IMG/VR virus record: IMGVR_UViG_2654587570_000007 | Length of the DNA stretch: 4,224 nucleotides | Source of the DNA: a virus | Lineage: Duplodnaviria; Heunggongvirae; Uroviricota; Caudoviricetes | Strand: one strand, 5' to 3' | Shown: positions 1-4,122 of the stretch, piece after piece | Layout: each line of letters opens with the position of its first letter | Numbering within the stretch: the first letter of the stretch is position 1 | Notes under the pieces: generated by a model | Seen by the model: the letters and a program-made list of their open reading frames with translations, nothing else | Databases searched by the model: none | What the model was told of the DNA's origin: nothing | Position numbers and translations under genes: made by a program

Positions 1-81
1 GTAGCTGAACAGGAGGGACAGCTGATAGAAACAGAAGCCACTGGAGCACCTCAAAAACACCATCATACACTAAATCAGTAA
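1..81 (+). CDS. 3' end of an upstream ORF (C-terminal 26 codons, product unknown); open from the window edge to TAA at 79-81
   Basis: Frame 1 is the only + frame open at the window start; it translates to VAEQEGQLIETEATGAPQKHHHTLNQ then stop. It is in the same frame as the 136..1059 ORF. Too short to assign a product; a holin C-terminus is possible but unsupported. Confidence 0.3.
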   Translation, partial: VAEQEGQLIETEATGAPQKHHHTLNQ

Positions 82-135
82 GTTGGCAGCATCACCAAAG
101 AGATAAATAATTACCCGGATAAGATTGCTGTTACT

Positions 136-1059
136 GTGGCACTTGAAATTGGCGGGCATCCGTCGTTGTTGTTGCCACATGTGGCGATTAGTCTTGACCG
201 TACTGAAGGTGCCACGCTGGAGTTCTACGAAGCTGAGGCGAAAAAACAGGCGAAGCAGTTTTTCATGGATATTGTTGCCGGGTTATGCGAAGGGGATGAA
301 CCGTCACCGGAAAAGCGCCCCGTAATTTTAGATGCGCAGGATGTATTGATAACCTACAAAGGAAAGCTACCGGGAAGAATTACTTGTTCTCTGAAGATGC
401 CGCCGTCAACACTGCGGTCAGAAAAAGATGATGTTGAATCGCGTATTGAAAAACTGGAGTGCTATATCGCTGAATTGAAAAAAAGCACCCCAACAAAAAA
501 TGAGGTGCTTGCAGCAGACGAAATGAAAGAAGCTATTCCTGATCGCGCGGCGAATCTAAGCTGCGCTTCATGGTTGAAAGAGCATCTTCAGCAGCCTGAA
601 AAAAAACGCCGCGATGAGCAGTTTGCTGCGTTTTACGATTATTGCCGGAAAGTGATGAGCAGAAATCTCGCAGAGTGTTTCAGTATTCATAATGATAATT
701 TCAGTGACCTGGAATGGGAGTGTAACCGGCCATCCTTTGTTGTATCCGGTGATGCTGGGAAAATAACCATCTCAGAAAATGGAAAAGTAACACCGCCATC
801 GCACCAGCATAGTGAGGAGCTCATTGAATTTGCCATTGATTACCTGAAGAACAATAAAAAGCAGGGGCTGATGAAGTGCATTGGTCGTTGCATGGGATAT
901 CTGCAGATAGCTGCTGAGATTGAAGCGCTGGCCAGTGGTGCGGACAAGGATGCAGTTGTGCGGGAGGCTCTTCTTCGTGATTTTGATAATCCGCCCTTTA
1001 AAAAAGTGCCGGCTTACTGGTTTCATCCAGGACTGACTTATCTTAAAGGACGTATATAA
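136..1059 (+). CDS. Hypothetical 307-aa soluble protein of unknown function, immediately upstream of the endolysin; start codon uncertain
   Basis: A 924-nt uninterrupted ORF, with the six-frame track placing the start at GTG 136. No transmembrane segment; charged and Cys-containing. No Shine-Dalgarno was found before GTG 136, GTG 181, ATG 265 or ATG 397. I do not recognise a family from memory. Confidence 0.6.
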   Translation: MALEIGGHPSLLLPHVAISLDRTEGATLEFYEAEAKKQAKQFFMDIVAGLCEGDEPSPEKRPVILDAQDVLITYKGKLPGRITCSLKMPPSTLRSEKDDVESRIEKLECYIAELKKSTPTKNEVLAADEMKEAIPDRAANLSCASWLKEHLQQPEKKRRDEQFAAFYDYCRKVMSRNLAECFSIHNDNFSDLEWECNRPSFVVSGDAGKITISENGKVTPPSHQHSEELIEFAIDYLKNNKKQGLMKCIGRCMGYLQIAAEIEALASGADKDAVVREALLRDFDNPPFKKVPAYWFHPGLTYLKGRI

Positions 1060-1101: not shown

Positions 1102-1635
1102 ATGAACACCAAAATCAAATACGGCCTGTCGGCTGCCGTTCTGGCGCTGATTGCCGCTGGTGCGCCTGCGCCTGACATTCTCGACCAGTTTCTGGATGAA
1201 AAGGAAGGTAACCACACCACGGCATACCGTGATGGTGCGGGGATCTGGACCATCTGCCGTGGTGCCATCATGGTGGATGGTAAACCTGTTGTTCCAGGCA
1301 TGAAGTTGTCGAAGGCAAAATGCGCTCAGGTTAACGCCATTGAGCGTAATAAGGCGCTGGCATGGGTGGAGAAAAACATCAAAGTGCCATTGACCGAACC
1401 ACAGAAAGCGGGGATTGCGTCATTCTGTCCGTACAACATTGGCCCCGGTAAGTGTTTCCCGTCGACGTTTTATAAACGAATTAATGCAGGCGATCGCAGG
1501 GGGGCGTGTGAGGCGATTCGCTGGTGGATTAAGGACGGTGGCAGAGACTGCCGTATTCGCTCAAACAACTGTTACGGTCAGGTATCCCGTCGCGACCAGG
1601 AGAGTGCGCTGGCGTGCTGGGGAATTGACAGATAA
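1102..1635 (+). CDS. R: SAR-type endolysin (phage lysozyme, T4-lysozyme/GH24 fold, P21 R / Stx-phage R-like)
   Basis: 177 aa. N-terminal weakly hydrophobic Gly/Ala-rich segment YGLSAAVLALIAAGAPAP is typical of a signal-arrest-release domain. Motif EGNHTTAYRDGAGIWTICRG gives the Glu35/Asp44/Thr50 spacing recalled for the P21 R catalytic triad. Near-identical by memory to the R protein of Stx phages. Confidence 0.93.
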   Translation: MNTKIKYGLSAAVLALIAAGAPAPDILDQFLDEKEGNHTTAYRDGAGIWTICRGAIMVDGKPVVPGMKLSKAKCAQVNAIERNKALAWVEKNIKVPLTEPQKAGIASFCPYNIGPGKCFPSTFYKRINAGDRRGACEAIRWWIKDGGRDCRIRSNNCYGQVSRRDQESALACWGIDR

Positions 1636-1725
1636 GCAGAATATTTTGCTGAAAAATGCGGTTTGCTCACACGGACGGATAACACGAAATCCTGCGAACT
1701 GACAAAAACTAAGTGAATAAAAGTA

Positions 1726-1764
1726 AAAACCCCGTTTGTTGGCTGCAAGCGGGGTTTTGTGTTT
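1726..1764 (+). terminator. Intrinsic (rho-independent) terminator-like hairpin between R and Rz, possibly bidirectional
   Basis: 13-bp stem aaaaccccgtttg / caagcggggtttt (one G-U pair), 7-nt loop ttggctg, GC-rich core, followed by T-tract ttttgtgttt. A-tract on the 5' side gives a U-tract on the opposite strand too. Confidence 0.6.
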
Positions 1765-1794
1765 CCTGACTCTGGAAAAGTCAAAGGAGAAAGT

Positions 1795-1932
1795 GTGTTT
1801 GATTTTAGCAAACTGATTCGGGAGATTCGAGTGATGGCTGAAAAATTATCCACCTGGAAGTTCATTCTTATCTGGCTGGTGTTTGTGATTATGGCCTCCG
1901 GTTATTTCATCGGTCAGATACGCTGGTGGTGA
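1795..1932 (+). CDS. Small single-pass membrane protein (45 aa from GTG 1795, or 32 aa from ATG 1834) between endolysin and spanins; candidate lysis accessory
   Basis: Not in the ORF track (below 60 aa). AAGGAG at 1784-1789 lies 5 nt before GTG 1795; alternative ATG 1834 has GGAG at 1821-1824. Product MFDFSKLIREIRVMAEKLSTWKFILIWLVFVIMASGYFIGQIRWW has one hydrophobic helix (FILIWLVFVIMASGYFIG). Stop TGA 1930-1932 is one base from the Rz ATG at 1934, suggesting translational coupling. Confidence 0.45.
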   Translation: MFDFSKLIREIRVMAEKLSTWKFILIWLVFVIMASGYFIGQIRWW

Positions 1933-1933
1933 A

Positions 1934-2401
1934 ATGAACCGCGTACTGTGCGTGGTCATCATTGCCCTGCTGGTGGCCTGTGGTGCGCTTAGTCTGGGGC
2001 TGAATCATTACCGTGATAACGCCATAACCTACAAAGAGCAGCGCGATAAAAAAGTCAGTGAGCTGGAGCAGGCAAATGCAACCATTACTGATATGCAGCA
2101 GCGCCAGCGTGATGTTGCTGCACTTGATGCCAGATACTCGAGGGAATTAGCCGATGCGAGAGCTGAAAATGAAACTCTTCGCGCTGACGTTGCCGCTGGT
2201 CGTAAGCGCCTGCGGATCAACGCCACCTGTCCAGGCTCCGTGCGTGAAGCCCCCACCACCTCCGGCGTGGATAATGCAACCGGCCCCCAACTGGCAGACA
2301 CCGTTACACGGGATTATTTCACCCTCAGAGAGCGGCTGATGACGATGCACAAGCAACTGGAAGGGGCACAGGACTATATCCGCACTCAGTGCCTGAAATA
2401 A
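1934..2401 (+). CDS. Rz: i-spanin Rz (inner-membrane spanin subunit)
   Basis: 155 aa. N-terminal TMD VLCVVIIALLVACGALSLGL followed by a charged coiled-coil-like periplasmic domain. Strong similarity by memory to lambda Rz (NHYRDNAITYK, AITDMQ, RQRDVAALDA, DYFTLRERL, MxKQLEG). Confidence 0.93.
   Translation: MNRVLCVVIIALLVACGALSLGLNHYRDNAITYKEQRDKKVSELEQANATITDMQQRQRDVAALDARYSRELADARAENETLRADVAAGRKRLRINATCPGSVREAPTTSGVDNATGPQLADTVTRDYFTLRERLMTMHKQLEGAQDYIRTQCLK
2154..2339 (+). CDS. Rz1: o-spanin Rz1 (outer-membrane lipoprotein), fully embedded in the +1 frame of Rz
   Basis: 61 aa. Signal peptide with lipobox LVVSAC (Cys20), then CVKPPPPPAWIMQP and WQTPLHGIISPSE, matching lambda Rz1 by memory. 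SD-like GAGGG about 9 nt upstream of ATG 2154. Confidence 0.85.
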   Translation: MRELKMKLFALTLPLVVSACGSTPPVQAPCVKPPPPPAWIMQPAPNWQTPLHGIISPSESG

Positions 2402-2751
2402 GTTTTGTTGATGCGCCGTATCGTCGCTGTATTCCCTCATTAACAGAGACCGCAGCCCGACAGGGAGACTCCTCTGCGCGAGTGTGCGGGGATAATCAAA
2501 AACGATACACACCGGGGTTTACCGCGTTAACGGAGCGCGGCGTTGTCCCCTCATAGTCGCCTGTCCGGTGCGATGGTGGAAGAAGCCGGATGTTTATCAC
2601 TATTAATTGATGACACAGAAATGGATTCATTGAATTTCAGCACGTTTTTGTATTCGTGTTATTGAACATCTGTTTATTTTACTTTTAACATATTGATAAT
2701 AAAAAGAGCTGTAAATCTTTAGATGAGTCGATTTTGTCCGGGGAAGTTCAA

Positions 2752-2889
2752 ATGGATTTTATGCTGACGGTTTCTGGTGTGGTTATCCTGTCCATTGCTT
2801 ATACTGCAGATAAATATGGCTGCCATTTGTTATCACGTATTGGCGCTTATTGTTCGTTGATGCTGATTTTCTCGTCGCTTTTTTTTTGA
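2752..2889 (+). CDS. Possible small hydrophobic protein (45 aa) in the AT-rich island; speculative
   Basis: ATG 2752 is preceded by GGGGAAG (2740-2746) with a 5-nt spacer. Product MDFMLTVSGVVILSIAYTADKYGCHLLSRIGAYCSLMLIFSSLFF. AT-rich promoter-like sequence upstream, e.g. TTGAAC at 2662-2667 then 18 bp then TAACAT. Short, in low-complexity DNA, no homolog recalled. Confidence 0.25.
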   Translation: MDFMLTVSGVVILSIAYTADKYGCHLLSRIGAYCSLMLIFSSLFF

Positions 2890-3025: not shown

Positions 3026-3211
3026 TTACTTAATTATGTAATTCATACCCGAACTCTCTGTTGACAGCCTTCTTCTGCAGGCTTCAATAACCCACGCTGA
3101 AAAGTTTCCTGAACCTTTCAGATCAAGAGCGATGTTAATTTGTTCAATCATCTGGTTTGGAAATCGGATGTTGCGGGTTGTTGTTCTGCGGGTTCTGTTC
3201 TTTGATGACAT
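3026..3211 (-). CDS. Small ribbon-helix-helix (Arc/MetJ-like) DNA-binding protein, YlcI/YnfO-like (DUF3950 with conserved NFS motif)
   Basis: 61-aa minus-strand ORF. Pattern RNIRFPNQMIEQINIALDLKGSGNFSAWVIEACRRRL fits beta-strand plus two helices; NFS motif present. SD-like GGGGAAA upstream of the ATG on the minus strand. Family assignment is from memory. Confidence 0.65.
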   Translation of the reverse strand: MSSKNRTRRTTTRNIRFPNQMIEQINIALDLKGSGNFSAWVIEACRRRLSTESSGMNYIIK

Positions 3212-3417: not shown

Positions 3418-3429
3418 GGGCGGCGACCT
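3418..3429. other. cosN: the 12-nt cohesive-end sequence gggcggcgacct; predicted nicks 3417/3418 on the top strand and 3429/3430 on the bottom strand
   Basis: ggttacg|gggcggcgacct|cgcgggttttcgctatttatgaaaattttccgg matches the lambda cos junction as I recall it, and lies just upstream of the terminase genes as in lambdoid phages. Confidence 0.85.
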
Positions 3430-3463
3430 CGCGGGTTTTCGCTATTTATGAAAATTTTCCGGG

Positions 3464-3574
3464 AACCATGTCCGGTTTCTCTGCAAGTTAACTACATAAA
3501 AAATATAAAAACAGGTTTTCCGTGAACCGGACATGCGCAAAAAATAGACATATAAACCGGACATGACCGGTTTT
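3464..3574. repeat. cosB-like region: three copies of an 11-bp repeat (inverted catgtccggtt at 3467-3477; direct aaccggacatg at 3525-3535 and 3555-3565) with an A/T-rich putative IHF-bending segment (about 3485-3515) between the first and second
   Basis: Repeats read directly from the sequence; the two direct copies are 30 bp apart. The layout of one inverted and two direct repeats around an A/T-rich segment mirrors the lambda R3-I1-R2-R1 pattern, but the repeat sequence is not the lambda one. Confidence 0.55.
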
Positions 3575-3612: not shown

Positions 3613-4122
3613 GTGGCTACGCAGACTGAAGTTGCCAGGCATTTGAGTCTGACCGATCGCCAGCTTCGCAGATTGCAGAAATTGCCGGGTGCTCCGGTCT
3701 CGAATAAGCGAGGACAACTGGATCTGGATGCCTGGCGTGATTTTTACATATCGTATCTGAGGAGAAGTAAAAACGATGTGCCTGATGGCGATAGCGAAGA
3801 CGACTATGAAGAAAAGTTACTCATTGCCAGATGGAAGTTGATCGAAGAACAGGCAATCGCCCAGCAATTAAAAAATCAGGCGTCCGAAGGAAAGCTTATT
3901 GACACCGGATTCTGTATTTTTGCCCTCAGTAAGCTGGCAATGGCGTTATCCAGTACGCTTGATTCCATCCCTTTATCCATGCAGCGACAGTTTCCTGATT
4001 TAACACCGCGCCATCTTGACCATCTGAAAACCCTTATTGCGAAGGGGGCAAATCAGTGTGCGCGGGCAGGGGATAAATTACCGGATTTACTCGATGAATA
4101 TATCAGAGCAACAACTGAATAA
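3613..4122 (+). CDS. nu1: Terminase small subunit (Nu1-like, DNA packaging protein)
   Basis: 169 aa. C-terminal half aligns closely by memory with lambda Nu1 (GFCIFALSKLA, LDSIPLSMQRQFPDLTPRHLD, LPDLLDEYI). N-terminal winged-HTH region is diverged. GTG start at 3613 is preceded by an in-frame stop and a G-rich SD. Confidence 0.92.
   Translation: MATQTEVARHLSLTDRQLRRLQKLPGAPVSNKRGQLDLDAWRDFYISYLRRSKNDVPDGDSEDDYEEKLLIARWKLIEEQAIAQQLKNQASEGKLIDTGFCIFALSKLAMALSSTLDSIPLSMQRQFPDLTPRHLDHLKTLIAKGANQCARAGDKLPDLLDEYIRATTE

What the first reader, a model, noticed from the sequence alone, without database searches (positions are those of the whole stretch)
1636..1933. 298-bp insert with a strong hairpin terminator splits the R-Rz junction
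In lambda the R stop and Rz start overlap. Here a 298-bp segment is inserted, carrying a GC-rich 13-bp stem-loop with a T-tract (1726-1764) and then the small TM ORF. A terminator inside a late operon implies that downstream expression depends on Q-type antitermination or readthrough, or that the hairpin ends a separate transcript. A toxin/antisense arrangement (type I TA-like) is an alternative for a small hydrophobic ORF next to a bidirectional hairpin.
Basis: seen in the sequence. Interest (0 to 1): 0.5.

Follow-up and report, generated by a model that had tools for sequence, protein, structure and literature searches.

The report
Self-silenced membrane microgene cassette between R and Rz
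The 298-bp stretch between the phage lysozyme and spanin genes is a mobile mini-cassette (terminator hairpin, structured leader, 45-residue membrane protein gene, probably its own antisense RNA) found in about a quarter of complete E. coli genomes and in Shiga-toxin phages, and I found no description of it.

Summary
R ends at 1635 and Rz starts at 1934. The 298-nt gap holds a strong hairpin (1726-1758) with U-rich tracts on both strands, and a small transmembrane ORF.

The hairpin does not belong to R. It is the 5' end of a portable cassette made of:
- an A-tract, a GC hairpin and a U-tract;
- an anti-SD sequence and a small second stem-loop that sequester the Shine-Dalgarno;
- a GTG start;
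- a 45-aa single-pass membrane protein (phrog_6632, function unknown), whose stop lies 1 nt before the Rz ATG.

The same cassette sits between endolysin and spanin in at least five unrelated lysis cassettes. It also sits among tail or baseplate genes in Salmonella, Yersinia, Pantoea and Pseudomonas phages. Both stems show compensatory changes.

Relatives with the same R carry other small-TM-ORF sets (gaps of 298-1426 nt). K-12 Qin has the no-insert state.

A minus-strand extended -10 (TGCTAAAAT, 1810-1802) is kept in one fixed register in every homolog, at synonymous sites and through amino-acid changes. It predicts an ~80-nt antisense RNA covering the SD and ending at the same hairpin.

Best reading: a late-operon microgene locked by a terminator, SD sequestration and probably a cis-antisense RNA. 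Transcription, toxicity and protein function are untested.

The parts
1102..1635 (+). R, SAR-type phage lysozyme (177 aa): upstream neighbour of the insert
   Evidence: PF00959 and phrog_7 endolysin; annotated as lysozyme in relatives.
1636..1711 (+). R-distal spacer shared by all gap classes, including the ant class
   Evidence: The first 86-95 nt of the gap match 933W-type and BP-4795-type phages at 87-92% identity. Their gaps then diverge into ant plus a B-type small ORF.
1712..1725 (.). A-rich tract (AAAAGTA upstream of the AAAA stem base). It is the template of the U-tail of a minus-strand transcript and the 5' boundary of the portable cassette
   Evidence: AAAAGC(A/G)AAAA is conserved upstream of the hairpin in E. 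coli, Salmonella, Citrobacter and Pseudomonas modules. In L090 and SEN34 the module begins about 15-25 nt upstream of the hairpin, just after the preceding gene.
1726..1758 (.). SL1: bidirectional intrinsic-terminator-like hairpin (14-bp stem, 5-nt loop)
   Evidence: It is conserved in all 21 listed modules, with different upper-stem sequences. On a first 10-sequence alignment, 5 of 15 predicted pairs have compensatory changes. The plus-strand fold is more stable in 14 of the 19 module copies compared.
1759..1767 (+). U-tract and anti-SD (GTGTTTCCT); TTTCCT 1762-1767 pairs with AGGAGA 1785-1790
   Evidence: MFE and centroid structures. The same closing helix around SL2 appears in many modules. 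GTTTC(C/T) is nearly invariant.
1768..1782 (+). SL2: small stem-loop abutting the SD (GACT / AGTC here, 7-nt purine-rich loop)
   Evidence: Covarying arms across modules: CCTTG/CAAGG, CCTG/CAGG, CATG/CATG, CTTG/CAAG, CGTTA/TAACG, TGACT/AGTCA.
1784..1789 (+). Shine-Dalgarno AAGGAG, 5 nt before the GTG start
   Evidence: Read directly from the sequence; (A)AGG(G)AG is conserved in all leaders.
1795..1932 (+). 45-aa single-pass inner-membrane microprotein gene (GTG start): MFDFSKLIREIRVMAEKLSTWKFILIWLVFVIMASGYFIGQIRWW
   Evidence: phrog_6632. 97 homologous protein clusters in Enterobacterales, Pseudomonas and metagenomes. Many synonymous differences in the TM part (for example 10 synonymous / 4 non-synonymous versus Rac-SA53). 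The N-terminal 13 codons change only conservatively or synonymously in Pseudomonas homologs. KD19 maximum 2.13 at residues 24-42, with 5 K/R and 3 D/E N-terminal to the TM. The stop lies 1 nt before the Rz ATG.
1834..1836 (+). Invariant internal ATG (Met14) with GGGAG at 1820-1824: a possible second start giving a 32-aa form
   Evidence: M14 is invariant. Arg9 uses the rare codons CGG/AGG, which create GGGAG. Some gene callers annotate the 32-aa form. The dual start itself is inferred.
1802..1810 (-). Predicted extended -10 promoter element TGCTAAAAT on the minus strand (weak -35 TCGAAT at 1830-1825)
   Evidence: A promoter-like element this strong occurs in 2.3% of shuffles anywhere in the region and in 0.5% at this position. 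TG, T-12, A-11 and T-7 are invariant in 16 of 16 sequences retrieved without using this motif, including third positions of codon 4 (T, amino acids F/I/L/Y) and codon 5 (C, amino acids S/I). The same register holds in the unrelated first ORFs C, D' and MKESS but not in the internal ORFs B and D. Background frequency is 0.12% of 1719 ORF starts.
1716..1796 (-). Predicted ~80-nt cis-antisense RNA (not demonstrated): 5' end opposite the start codon, anti-SD, SL2', SL1' terminator, U-tail
   Evidence: Geometry follows from the -10 element and the hairpin. Fold -21.9 kcal/mol, z = -3.8, two stem-loops. No Rfam family matches at threshold.
1934..2401 (+). Rz i-spanin (Rz1 o-spanin embedded at 2154-2339): downstream neighbour, start 1 nt after the small ORF's stop
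   Evidence: PF03245 and phrog_13. The same 1-nt spacing is kept in front of spanins of other families (DUF2514 in E. fergusonii).

Best explanation
The 298-bp segment is mostly a portable, self-insulated microgene cassette (about 1712-1932), inserted in the hypervariable slot between the endolysin gene R and the spanin gene Rz of a lambdoid (Stx-phage-like) prophage.

Cassette parts, in order:
- a bidirectional intrinsic terminator (SL1, 1726-1758);
- a leader in which TTTCCT (1762-1767) and a small stem-loop (SL2) sequester the Shine-Dalgarno;
- a weak GTG start at 1795;
- a 45-aa N-in single-pass inner-membrane protein whose stop abuts the Rz start.

Proposed mechanism. In the lysogen, unmodified RNA polymerase coming from upstream stops at SL1, and any read-through mRNA is poorly translated. 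In addition, a conserved extended -10 promoter on the opposite strand (1810-1802) probably makes an ~80-nt RNA that is antisense to the start codon, SD and leader and ends at the same hairpin. After induction, Q-modified polymerase ignores SL1. The late transcript then outnumbers or occludes the antisense RNA, the microprotein is made together with the lysis proteins, and ribosomes terminating at 1932 can re-initiate on Rz.

Shown: the anatomy, its conservation and covariation, its mobility between contexts, and the coding signature. Inferred: termination, the antisense transcript, Q dependence, and the harmfulness of the protein that would justify such locks. The protein's molecular role is unknown. 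My guess is a membrane-active late function, either lysis-modulating or excluding other phages.
For: 1. Anatomy of the hairpin, leader and ORF.
2. The insert is optional and modular. Among 80 loci with R at least 94% identical, the gap takes discrete sizes and holds 1-4 small TM ORFs (types A, B, C, D). The same hairpin and leader head the array in every class except the ant class, which lacks the hairpin. K-12 Qin and Sakai Sp3 have R/Rz overlapping.
3. The full-length segment is present in 1337 of 5426 complete E. coli genomes and in H-19B and many Stx phages.
4. The hairpin belongs to the ORF. The unit hairpin + leader + GTG/TTG + homologous ORF recurs behind four endolysin types (177-aa and 162-aa PF00959, GH19, and a 138-aa 'NPGNIR' protein) and in front of different spanins. 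It also recurs among baseplate or tail genes in SEN34, Rac-SA53, Pantoea, Yersinia, Pseudomonas phages and metagenomic contigs.
5. Both stems covary.
6. Coding signature and family breadth.
7. Antisense promoter. Shuffle test: 0.5% at the right position. TG, T-12, A-11 and T-7 are invariant, including at two synonymous sites across the residue variants F/I/L/Y and S/I, in 16 sequences retrieved without using the motif. The register is identical in the unrelated first ORFs (C, D', MKESS) and absent from the internal ORFs B and D. Background is 0.12%.
8. A sibling ORF of the same gap (B type, XECs191) gave RIBOseq signal in E. coli Sakai (PMC5597208 supplements).
9. Head and tail genes lie downstream across cos (3418-3429; cos recognised from my own knowledge), so read-through is obligatory in viable phages.
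Against: - No transcript data of any kind exist for this locus. No Hfq-bound orphan peak of Tree et al. 2014 that I checked lies in an R-Rz gap, but every Sakai prophage I inspected has the ant class or no gap, so this says little.
- G-U pairs make SL1 more stable on the plus strand in 14 of the 19 module copies compared. The hairpin is therefore tuned first for the sense RNA, and the minus-strand terminator is weaker in this window (-12.8 versus -19.9 kcal/mol).
- The -35 of the antisense promoter is poor (3/6).
- The -10 lies in AT-rich early codons, which are common at gene starts for translational reasons.
- The A, C and D' N-termini may be distant homologs, so the agreements in register are not fully independent.
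- No sense promoter belongs to the cassette, unlike classical morons or type I TA loci.
- Protein toxicity and function are unknown.
- In this particular prophage an IS1 sits between the holin and R, so the late operon may be crippled.
Confidence: 0.5

Rival explanations
1. Sense-only cassette. The segment is a late-operon moron-like insert with a terminator and structured leader and a small membrane protein gene, but no antisense RNA is made. The minus-strand -10-like motif is a by-product of conserved, AT-rich early codons (D-F-S-K) selected for the peptide or for efficient initiation.
For: The plus-strand fold of SL1 is favoured through G-U pairs. The -35 is weak. No Rfam or literature record of an sRNA exists here. 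Early codons are generally AT-rich (established knowledge).
Against: Third-position T of codon 4 and C of codon 5 are invariant in 16 of 16 sequences, although the encoded residues change (F/I/L/Y; S/I) and although the Pseudomonas-type homologs use GC-ending codons elsewhere. The same register is found in the unrelated N-termini MKESS and MEKYK, but not in the internal ORFs of the arrays. Background is 0.12%. The conserved A-tract upstream of SL1 gives a U-tail only to a minus-strand RNA.
Confidence: 0.27
2. The hairpin is simply the terminator or 3'-stabiliser of the S-R message (or of a convergent transcript). It ends a separate lysis transcript, and the small ORF next to it is incidental.
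For: The hairpin lies 90 nt after the R stop and has a canonical terminator form on both strands. The ylcI/ynfO-type gene at 3026-3211 is transcribed towards it.
Against: The ant-class gap behind the same R lacks the hairpin: homology stops at gap nt 86-95, before it. The hairpin accompanies the small ORF into baseplate or tail clusters and behind unrelated endolysins. The convergent gene is 1.3 kb away, with all of Rz in between.
Confidence: 0.06
3. The microprotein is a dedicated lysis accessory (antiholin-, releasin- or spanin-regulator-like), placed before Rz because it acts with the SAR endolysin, pinholin or spanin. The leader only sets its dose.
For: It sits exactly between endolysin and i-spanin in at least five different lysis cassettes and keeps the 1-nt stop-start junction. 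It is a single TM helix with an amphipathic, charged N-terminus and a possible dual start, reminiscent of holin/antiholin pairs. Small membrane proteins do regulate SAR endolysin release in phage Mu (PMC9239132, abstract seen).
Against: Close homologs with the same leader sit in tail or baseplate clusters far from lysis genes. The gene is dispensable, since the same R/Rz occur with other small ORFs or none. It is not specific to SAR endolysins (GH19 cassette). There are no Pfam, NCBIfam or PADLOC hits.
Confidence: 0.15
4. Nothing functional: a chance hairpin and a spurious ORF in a recombination scar between modules.
For: Mosaic junctions of lambdoid phages accumulate non-coding scars. The ORF is short and has no named family.
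Against: Fold z-scores of -3.7 to -5.4. Covariation in two stems. Protein-level conservation from Escherichia to Pseudomonas with a synonymous-substitution signature.
Confidence: 0.02

Closest known systems
Phage morons (Juhala et al. 2000 definition; e.g. HK97 gp15, lambda bor/lom)
   Same: An extra, dispensable small gene lies between two late genes that are adjacent in related phages. It is mobile between unrelated late-operon slots and encodes a membrane protein.
   Different: Classical morons carry their own sigma-70 promoter upstream and a terminator downstream, and are expressed from the prophage. Here the terminator is upstream, no sense promoter is present, and the design looks made to prevent prophage expression.
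Type I toxin-antitoxin loci with 5'-overlapping cis-antisense RNA (symE/SymR, hok/Sok geometry)
   Same: A hydrophobic protein under 60 aa. The SD is sequestered in the mRNA. The predicted sRNA promoter lies in the first codons and reads back over the start codon and SD to a Rho-independent terminator.
   Different: Toxicity and the sRNA are not demonstrated. There is no dedicated toxin promoter, because the mRNA is the phage late transcript. There is no sequence similarity to Hok, Ldr, Ibs, TisB, ShoB, ZorO and similar toxins (no Pfam or NCBIfam hit). The gene is translationally abutted to the next operon gene.
Phage P22 sar RNA / ant (own knowledge: Liao, Wu, Susskind 1987); also IS10 RNA-OUT and lambda OOP
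   Same: A small (~70-80 nt) phage antisense RNA starts just inside the regulated gene, covers its ribosome-binding site and ends at an intrinsic terminator. Its effect depends on the strength of the opposing sense transcription.
   Different: No sequence relation. Here the unit is a portable cassette found in many phage types, and its terminator also faces the sense transcript.
Q-dependent read-through of internal terminators in lambdoid late operons (lambda tR' and downstream terminators; StxS at tR' of Stx phages, PMC7547250)
   Same: An intrinsic terminator lies inside a transcription unit that only antitermination-modified polymerase traverses.
   Different: tR' lies directly after pR' and is part of the Q switch. 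This hairpin is 90 nt after R, belongs to an optional cassette, and no short sense RNA is expected from it.
Sibling small ORFs of the same gap (phrog_4906 'B', phrog_1115 'C', 'D'; Sakai ECs_5713/5732/5741, XECs191)
   Same: The same slot, the same single-TM architecture, and shared N-terminal (MxDKL) or C-terminal (IRWW / ALKS) motifs. The C and D' types use the same hairpin and leader.
   Different: They belong to different PHROG families. The B and D types are internal to the arrays, without a hairpin or an antisense -10.

Membership tests
Intrinsic (Rho-independent) terminator | GC-rich stem-loop immediately followed by a U-rich tract | tested here: met
   14-bp stem with 6 G-C pairs, 5-nt loop, then UUUUGUGUUU on the plus strand and UUUUUACUUUUAUU on the minus strand.
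Intrinsic (Rho-independent) terminator | Transcripts actually end there | not testable with these tools
   No Term-seq or RNA-seq data are available for a strain with this insert. The supplements of PMC7547250 are not held.
Phage moron | Extra gene between genes that are adjacent in related phages | tested here: met
   rrrQ/rzpQ overlap in K-12 Qin, and R/Rz overlap in Sakai Sp3. Gap classes vary among close relatives.
Phage moron | Own promoter upstream and terminator downstream of the gene | tested here: not met
   No sense-strand promoter-like site lies in 1636-1795. The terminator lies upstream, and the ORF's stop abuts the Rz ATG.
Type I toxin-antitoxin | Small (<60 aa) hydrophobic membrane protein | tested here: met
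   45 aa; KD19 maximum 2.13 at residues 24-42.
Type I toxin-antitoxin | Antisense sRNA complementary to the toxin mRNA | tested here: inconclusive
   A conserved extended -10 in a fixed register plus a bidirectional terminator predict an ~80-nt RNA. There is no expression evidence and no Rfam family.
Type I toxin-antitoxin | Toxicity on overexpression, neutralised by the RNA | not testable with these tools
   Requires an experiment.
Type I toxin-antitoxin | Homology to a known toxin family | tested here: not met
   No Pfam, NCBIfam or PADLOC hit. PHROG annotation is unknown function.
Holin / antiholin | Membrane protein encoded in the lysis cassette, often with a dual-start motif | tested here: inconclusive
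   It lies in the cassette here and in four other cassette types, and a possible Met1/Met14 dual start exists. However, homologs with the same leader lie in tail or baseplate clusters, and the prophage relatives already carry a class II holin.
Known RNA families (Rfam 15), incl. EHEC prophage sRNAs AgvB, AsxR, STnc100, HnrS region | Covariance-model match at gathering score | tested here: not met
   The best hit is the rimP leader on the minus strand at 29.9 bits against a gathering score of 47, driven by the terminator hairpin alone. Nothing was found in 9 related loci. The HnrS segment of Sakai has no match in the window.

The most novel reading that the evidence does not exclude
The cassette is a new, widely spread class of phage-borne 'locked' membrane microgenes. 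One bidirectional terminator both insulates the gene from non-antiterminated sense transcription and terminates a cis-antisense RNA that is launched from inside the gene's first six codons. In effect this is a type I toxin-antitoxin-like module that uses the phage late transcript as its toxin mRNA. It would fire only when Q (or an equivalent late regulator) is active, and it is exchanged as a unit between lysis and tail operons from Escherichia to Pseudomonas.
Probability: 0.4. Interest if true: 0.75.

Novelty: new variant of a known kind. Interest (0 to 1): 0.6.

Why it matters
About a quarter of complete E. coli genomes carry this segment (1337 of 5426). EHEC strains carry up to a dozen related copies, and classical Stx phages such as H-19B carry it too. 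It is usually unannotated or called 'hypothetical'.

If the model holds, it would add three things:
- a further membrane protein to the pinholin / SAR-endolysin / spanin lysis cassette of Shiga-toxin phages, which is relevant to the timing of lysis and toxin release;
- a compact natural device (terminator, anti-SD leader, antisense RNA) for keeping a membrane-active gene silent in lysogens;
- a clear example of a non-coding leader and microgene moving together as a unit between operons of very different phages.

All of this can be tested directly with a Northern blot, a reporter fusion and a deletion.

Tried and rejected
- The antisense promoter flagged by the consensus scan (-35 at 1917-1912, -10 at 1893-1888) is not conserved in the Salmonella or E. 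fergusonii homologs. Rejected.
- Known EHEC prophage sRNAs. HnrS (EcOnc10-12) lies at the 3' end of the ylcI-type gene, on the other side of Rz, and is absent from this window. The Pas sRNAs lie upstream of the holin. The EcOnc peaks I checked in Sakai Sp3, Sp6, Sp12 and Sp15 are not in an R-Rz gap, and those prophages have the ant class or no gap. This was uninformative for the hairpin.
- Rfam, Pfam, NCBIfam and PADLOC gave no family.
- Literature searches on spanin and small membrane proteins, 'between R and Rz', type I toxins in lysis cassettes, and the enterobacterial microproteome found no description. The only relevant item is RIBOseq evidence for the sibling B-type ORF.
- The 10 genome contigs homologs were found with a DNA pattern that contains the -10 motif. 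I did not use them to test its conservation, only for the hairpin, the leader and the genomic context.
- Folding 1759-1840 gave an alternative pairing of the anti-SD with the internal SD, but it is not better than shuffles (z = -1.3). No claim is made from it.
- My first leader pattern scan was too strict (it required 5 pyrimidines) and returned only SEN34-like loci.
- Structure prediction of a 45-aa helix was judged uninformative and was not run.
Full report
**1. Setting**

The window is the late region of a lambdoid, Stx-phage-like E. coli prophage. In order it holds:
- an IS1 end at 1-96;
- a truncated YdfR/DUF1327-family gene at 136-1059;
- the SAR-type lysozyme R at 1102-1635;
- the 298-nt gap;
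- Rz at 1934-2401 with Rz1 embedded at 2154-2339;
- a DUF3950 (ylcI/ynfO-type) gene on the minus strand at 3026-3211;
- lambda-type cos (GGGCGGCGACCT at 3418-3429, recognised from my own knowledge);
- the small terminase subunit at 3613-4122.

A 99.4%-identical prophage in strain UTAK-1 shows the intact order: Q, SASA esterase, class II holin, YdfR, lysozyme, a 45-aa hypothetical protein, Rz, terminase and head genes.

**2.

The gap is exactly 1636-1933. The hairpin at 1726-1758 has a 14-bp stem and a 5-nt loop and is followed by TTTTGTGTTT. It folds far better than shuffled sequence: z = -3.7 in a 101-nt context and z = -4.2 in a 51-nt context. The opposite strand also forms a hairpin followed by UUUUUACUUUUAUU.

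The small ORF runs from GTG 1795 to TGA 1932. AAGGAG lies 5 nt upstream of the start, and the stop is 1 nt before the Rz ATG.

**3. The gap is a swap site**

Among 80 IMG/VR loci whose R is at least 94% identical, R and Rz never overlap. The gap takes discrete lengths: 298 (n=26), 335/336, 438, 478, 486/487 (n=18), 499, 642 (n=25), 978/993 and 1426 nt.

Each class holds one to four small single-TM ORFs, of four types:
- A: the ORF of this window, phrog_6632;
- B: MSDKLITL..., phrog_4906;
- C: ...ISRALAFAIKWV..., phrog_1115;
- D: ...AFAIRIVAIAVLVWAIRWW.

The 993 class adds an antirepressor gene and the 1426 class a methylase gene.

The 298-nt query matches 2132 of 5426 complete E. coli genomes. 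In 1337 of them it matches over at least 80% of its length, and it matches 323 phage records. The match is mosaic:
- the first 86-95 nt are shared with 933W/BP-4795-type gaps;
- the first 156 nt (through the hairpin and leader) are shared with the C-first classes;
- the rest is specific to type A.

The no-insert state exists for the same lysozyme family. In K-12 Qin, rrrQ overlaps rzpQ by 4 nt. A second case of overlapping R and Rz is Sakai Sp3, with a 165-aa R.

**4. The hairpin belongs to the small ORF, not to R**

All array classes begin with the same hairpin and leader. The ant class, behind the same R, lacks it.

Homologs of the 45-aa protein were found by protein search only. They occur in two kinds of context.

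Between endolysin and i-spanin of unrelated lysis cassettes:
- Salmonella: 162-aa PF00959 lysozyme with Rz;
- E. fergusonii: GH19 endolysin with a DUF2514 spanin;
- Citrobacter braakii: 138-aa 'NPGNIR' endolysin;
- Citrobacter sp.: GH19 endolysin with another spanin;
- phage SPN3UB.

Outside lysis cassettes:
- after baseplate genes in Salmonella phage SEN34, E. coli phage Rac-SA53, Pantoea and Yersinia;
- after tail-tip genes in Pseudomonas phages;
- after a tape-measure gene, a tail-fibre gene or head genes in Sodalis and in metagenomic contigs.

In every case the ORF is preceded by the same unit: an A-tract, a GC hairpin, a U-tract, a ~35-nt leader and a GTG or TTG start.

E. fergusonii carries two such units in tandem. 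The first has an unrelated ORF (MKESS...WVKWW).

**5. Structure conservation**

SL1 keeps its A/U and CCCCG/CGGGG base, but the upper stem changes with compensation (for example GUUUG/CAAGC, GAUUG/CAGUC, GAAGUG/CACUC, GACUG/CAGUG). In a first 10-sequence alignment, 5 of 15 predicted pairs have double changes. The 21 listed modules fold at -22 to -34 kcal/mol over the ~82-nt hairpin-plus-leader context.

A second stem-loop, SL2, sits just 5' of the SD and covaries: CCTTG/CAAGG, CCTG/CAGG, CATG/CATG, CTTG/CAAG, CGTTA/TAACG, and TGACT/AGTCA in this window.

The nearly invariant GTTTC(C/T) after the U-tract pairs with the SD. In the window, 1762-1767 pairs with 1785-1790. The start codon is non-AUG in the A-type modules.

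G-U pairs make SL1 more stable on the plus strand in 14 of the 19 module copies compared. The sense RNA is therefore at least one of the strands under selection.

**6. The ORF is a gene**

The family has 97 clusters (E up to 0.01) in Escherichia, Salmonella, Citrobacter, Enterobacter, Klebsiella, Yersinia, Providencia, Trabulsiella, Pseudomonas and metagenomes. D3, S5, K6, E10, R12, M14 and F23 are invariant in a 12-sequence alignment.

The TM half accumulates synonymous differences: 10 synonymous / 4 non-synonymous and 12 / 6 in two comparisons. The first 13 codons change only conservatively or synonymously even in Pseudomonas. This supports the GTG start.

Met14 is invariant and is preceded by GGGAG built from rare Arg codons. 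A second 32-aa product is therefore possible (inference).

The predicted topology is an N-terminal amphipathic cytoplasmic segment, a TM helix at residues 24-42, and a C-terminal RWW.

There is no Pfam, NCBIfam or PADLOC family.

A sibling ORF of the gap (B type) gave RIBOseq signal in E. coli Sakai as XECs191 (PMC5597208 supplements).

**7. A conserved antisense promoter**

Codons 3-6 (GAT TTT AGC AAA) read TGCTAAAAT on the minus strand (1810-1802), which is an extended -10. The predicted start at about 1795 lies opposite the start codon. The RNA would cover the SD and leader and stop at SL1, giving about 80 nt with two stem-loops and a U-tail.

A promoter-like element of this strength occurs in 2.3% of dinucleotide shuffles of 1759-1870, and in 0.5% at the right position.

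In 16 distinct sequences retrieved without reference to this motif, TG, T-12, A-11 and T-7 are invariant. This includes two third-codon positions: codon 4 always ends in T although it encodes F, I, L or Y, and codon 5 always ends in C although it encodes S or I. The variants read TAAAAT, TAATAT, TAAGAT, TATAGT and TAAACT.

The same register gives:
- TGCTAGACT in the unrelated MKESS ORF;
- TATACT in the C and D' first ORFs (with a 4/6 -35 in type C);
- TGATAAAAT in a distant NFIK homolog.

The internal ORFs B and D have nothing comparable. Among 1719 other ORF starts in the fetched loci, TGnTAnnnT in that register occurs in 0.12% and TAnnnT in 2.1%.

This is the strongest argument that the hairpin is bidirectional for a reason. 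It remains a prediction:
- there is no RNA evidence;
- the -35 is weak;
- early codons tend to be AT-rich;
- the A, C and D' N-termini may share ancestry.

**8. Interpretation**

The segment is best explained as a portable microgene cassette that keeps a membrane protein silent until late transcription. Its locks are:
- an intrinsic terminator facing upstream transcription;
- SD sequestration plus a weak start codon;
- probably a cis-antisense RNA that uses the same terminator.

The terminase, head and tail genes follow across cos in the same unit, so functional phages carrying the cassette must read through SL1. In lambdoid phages that is the property of Q-modified polymerase (established knowledge).

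The tight stop-ATG junction suggests termination-reinitiation into Rz.

The role of the protein is not known. Its repeated position before spanins suggests a lysis link. Its presence in tail operons and its dispensability argue for a general late membrane function or a moron-like accessory role.

**9. Comparison with known systems**

The cassette meets the moron criterion of an extra gene between adjacent genes, but not the promoter-gene-terminator layout.

It has the size, hydrophobicity, SD sequestration and predicted antisense geometry of type I TA loci (symE/SymR-like) and of P22 sar/ant. However, toxicity and the RNA are untested, and there is no homology to known toxins.

No Rfam family or published sRNA maps here.

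I therefore file it as a new variant of known kinds (moron / antisense-guarded small membrane protein), not as a member of any named family.

**10. Verdict**

The anatomy and mobility are well established by comparison. The mechanism is inferred and can be tested with simple experiments.

Noticed in passing
window 1-98: End of an IS1 element (100% matches annotated as IS1B transposase). All prophage relatives align only from position 97 on. The IS1 truncates the YdfR/DUF1327-family gene (136-1059; the profile match starts at position 24) and separates the holin from R, so this prophage's late operon is probably disrupted.
   Followed up: partly
window 136-1059: A 307-aa YdfR/DUF1327-family protein of unknown function (phrog_1085) occupies the S-R slot. 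Relatives carry versions of about 100 to 330 aa there, so the S-R junction is a second variable slot of the lysis cassette.
   Followed up: no
window 3418-3465: GGGCGGCGACCTCGCGGGTTTTCGCTATTTATGAAAATTTTCCGG is the lambda cos sequence (own knowledge). It lies between the DUF3950 gene and the small terminase gene, so the head and tail genes are downstream of the hairpin in the late transcript.
   Followed up: no
window 2734-2889: Another small hydrophobic ORF (51 aa by ORF scan; PGAP calls a 46-aa hypothetical protein in a relative) lies in the AT-rich region after Rz. It matches no PHROG or Pfam family.
   Followed up: no
window 3026-3211 (-): A YlcI/YnfO (DUF3950) gene convergent with the late operon. 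In E. coli Sakai the multicopy sRNA HnrS (EcOnc10-12) maps to the 3' end of the longer homolog of this gene. The HnrS part has no match in this window.
   Followed up: yes
L004 2657-2985; L006 1895-2382; L005 3338-3484: Sibling R-Rz gaps carry arrays of two to four other small single-TM ORFs (types B, C, D) that share N- or C-terminal motifs with the ORF of this window (MxDKL..., ...IRWW, ...ALKS). This suggests a recombining paralog family. The B type was scored as translated in Sakai RIBOseq (XECs191).
   Followed up: partly
L090 2686-2908 and 3721-6138: An E. fergusonii prophage has two hairpin-led cassettes in tandem. The first has a different leader stem (CGTTA/TAACG) and an unrelated ORF (MKESS...WVKWW). 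Directly after the spanin lies a convergent LRR/NEL (IpaH/SspH-type) effector gene.
   Followed up: partly
L101 2560-2643 (-): Phage Rac-SA53 has a strong Rfam hit to sRNA-Xcc1 (78 bits, above the gathering score) about 1 kb downstream of its copy of the cassette, next to an antirepressor gene.
   Followed up: no
window 1825-1830 / codon 12 of the ORF: Arg12 is encoded by the rare codon CGA in 15 of 16 divergent homologs. This coincides with the weak antisense -35 (TCGAAT / TCGCAA), but it could equally reflect some other RNA-level constraint.
   Followed up: no
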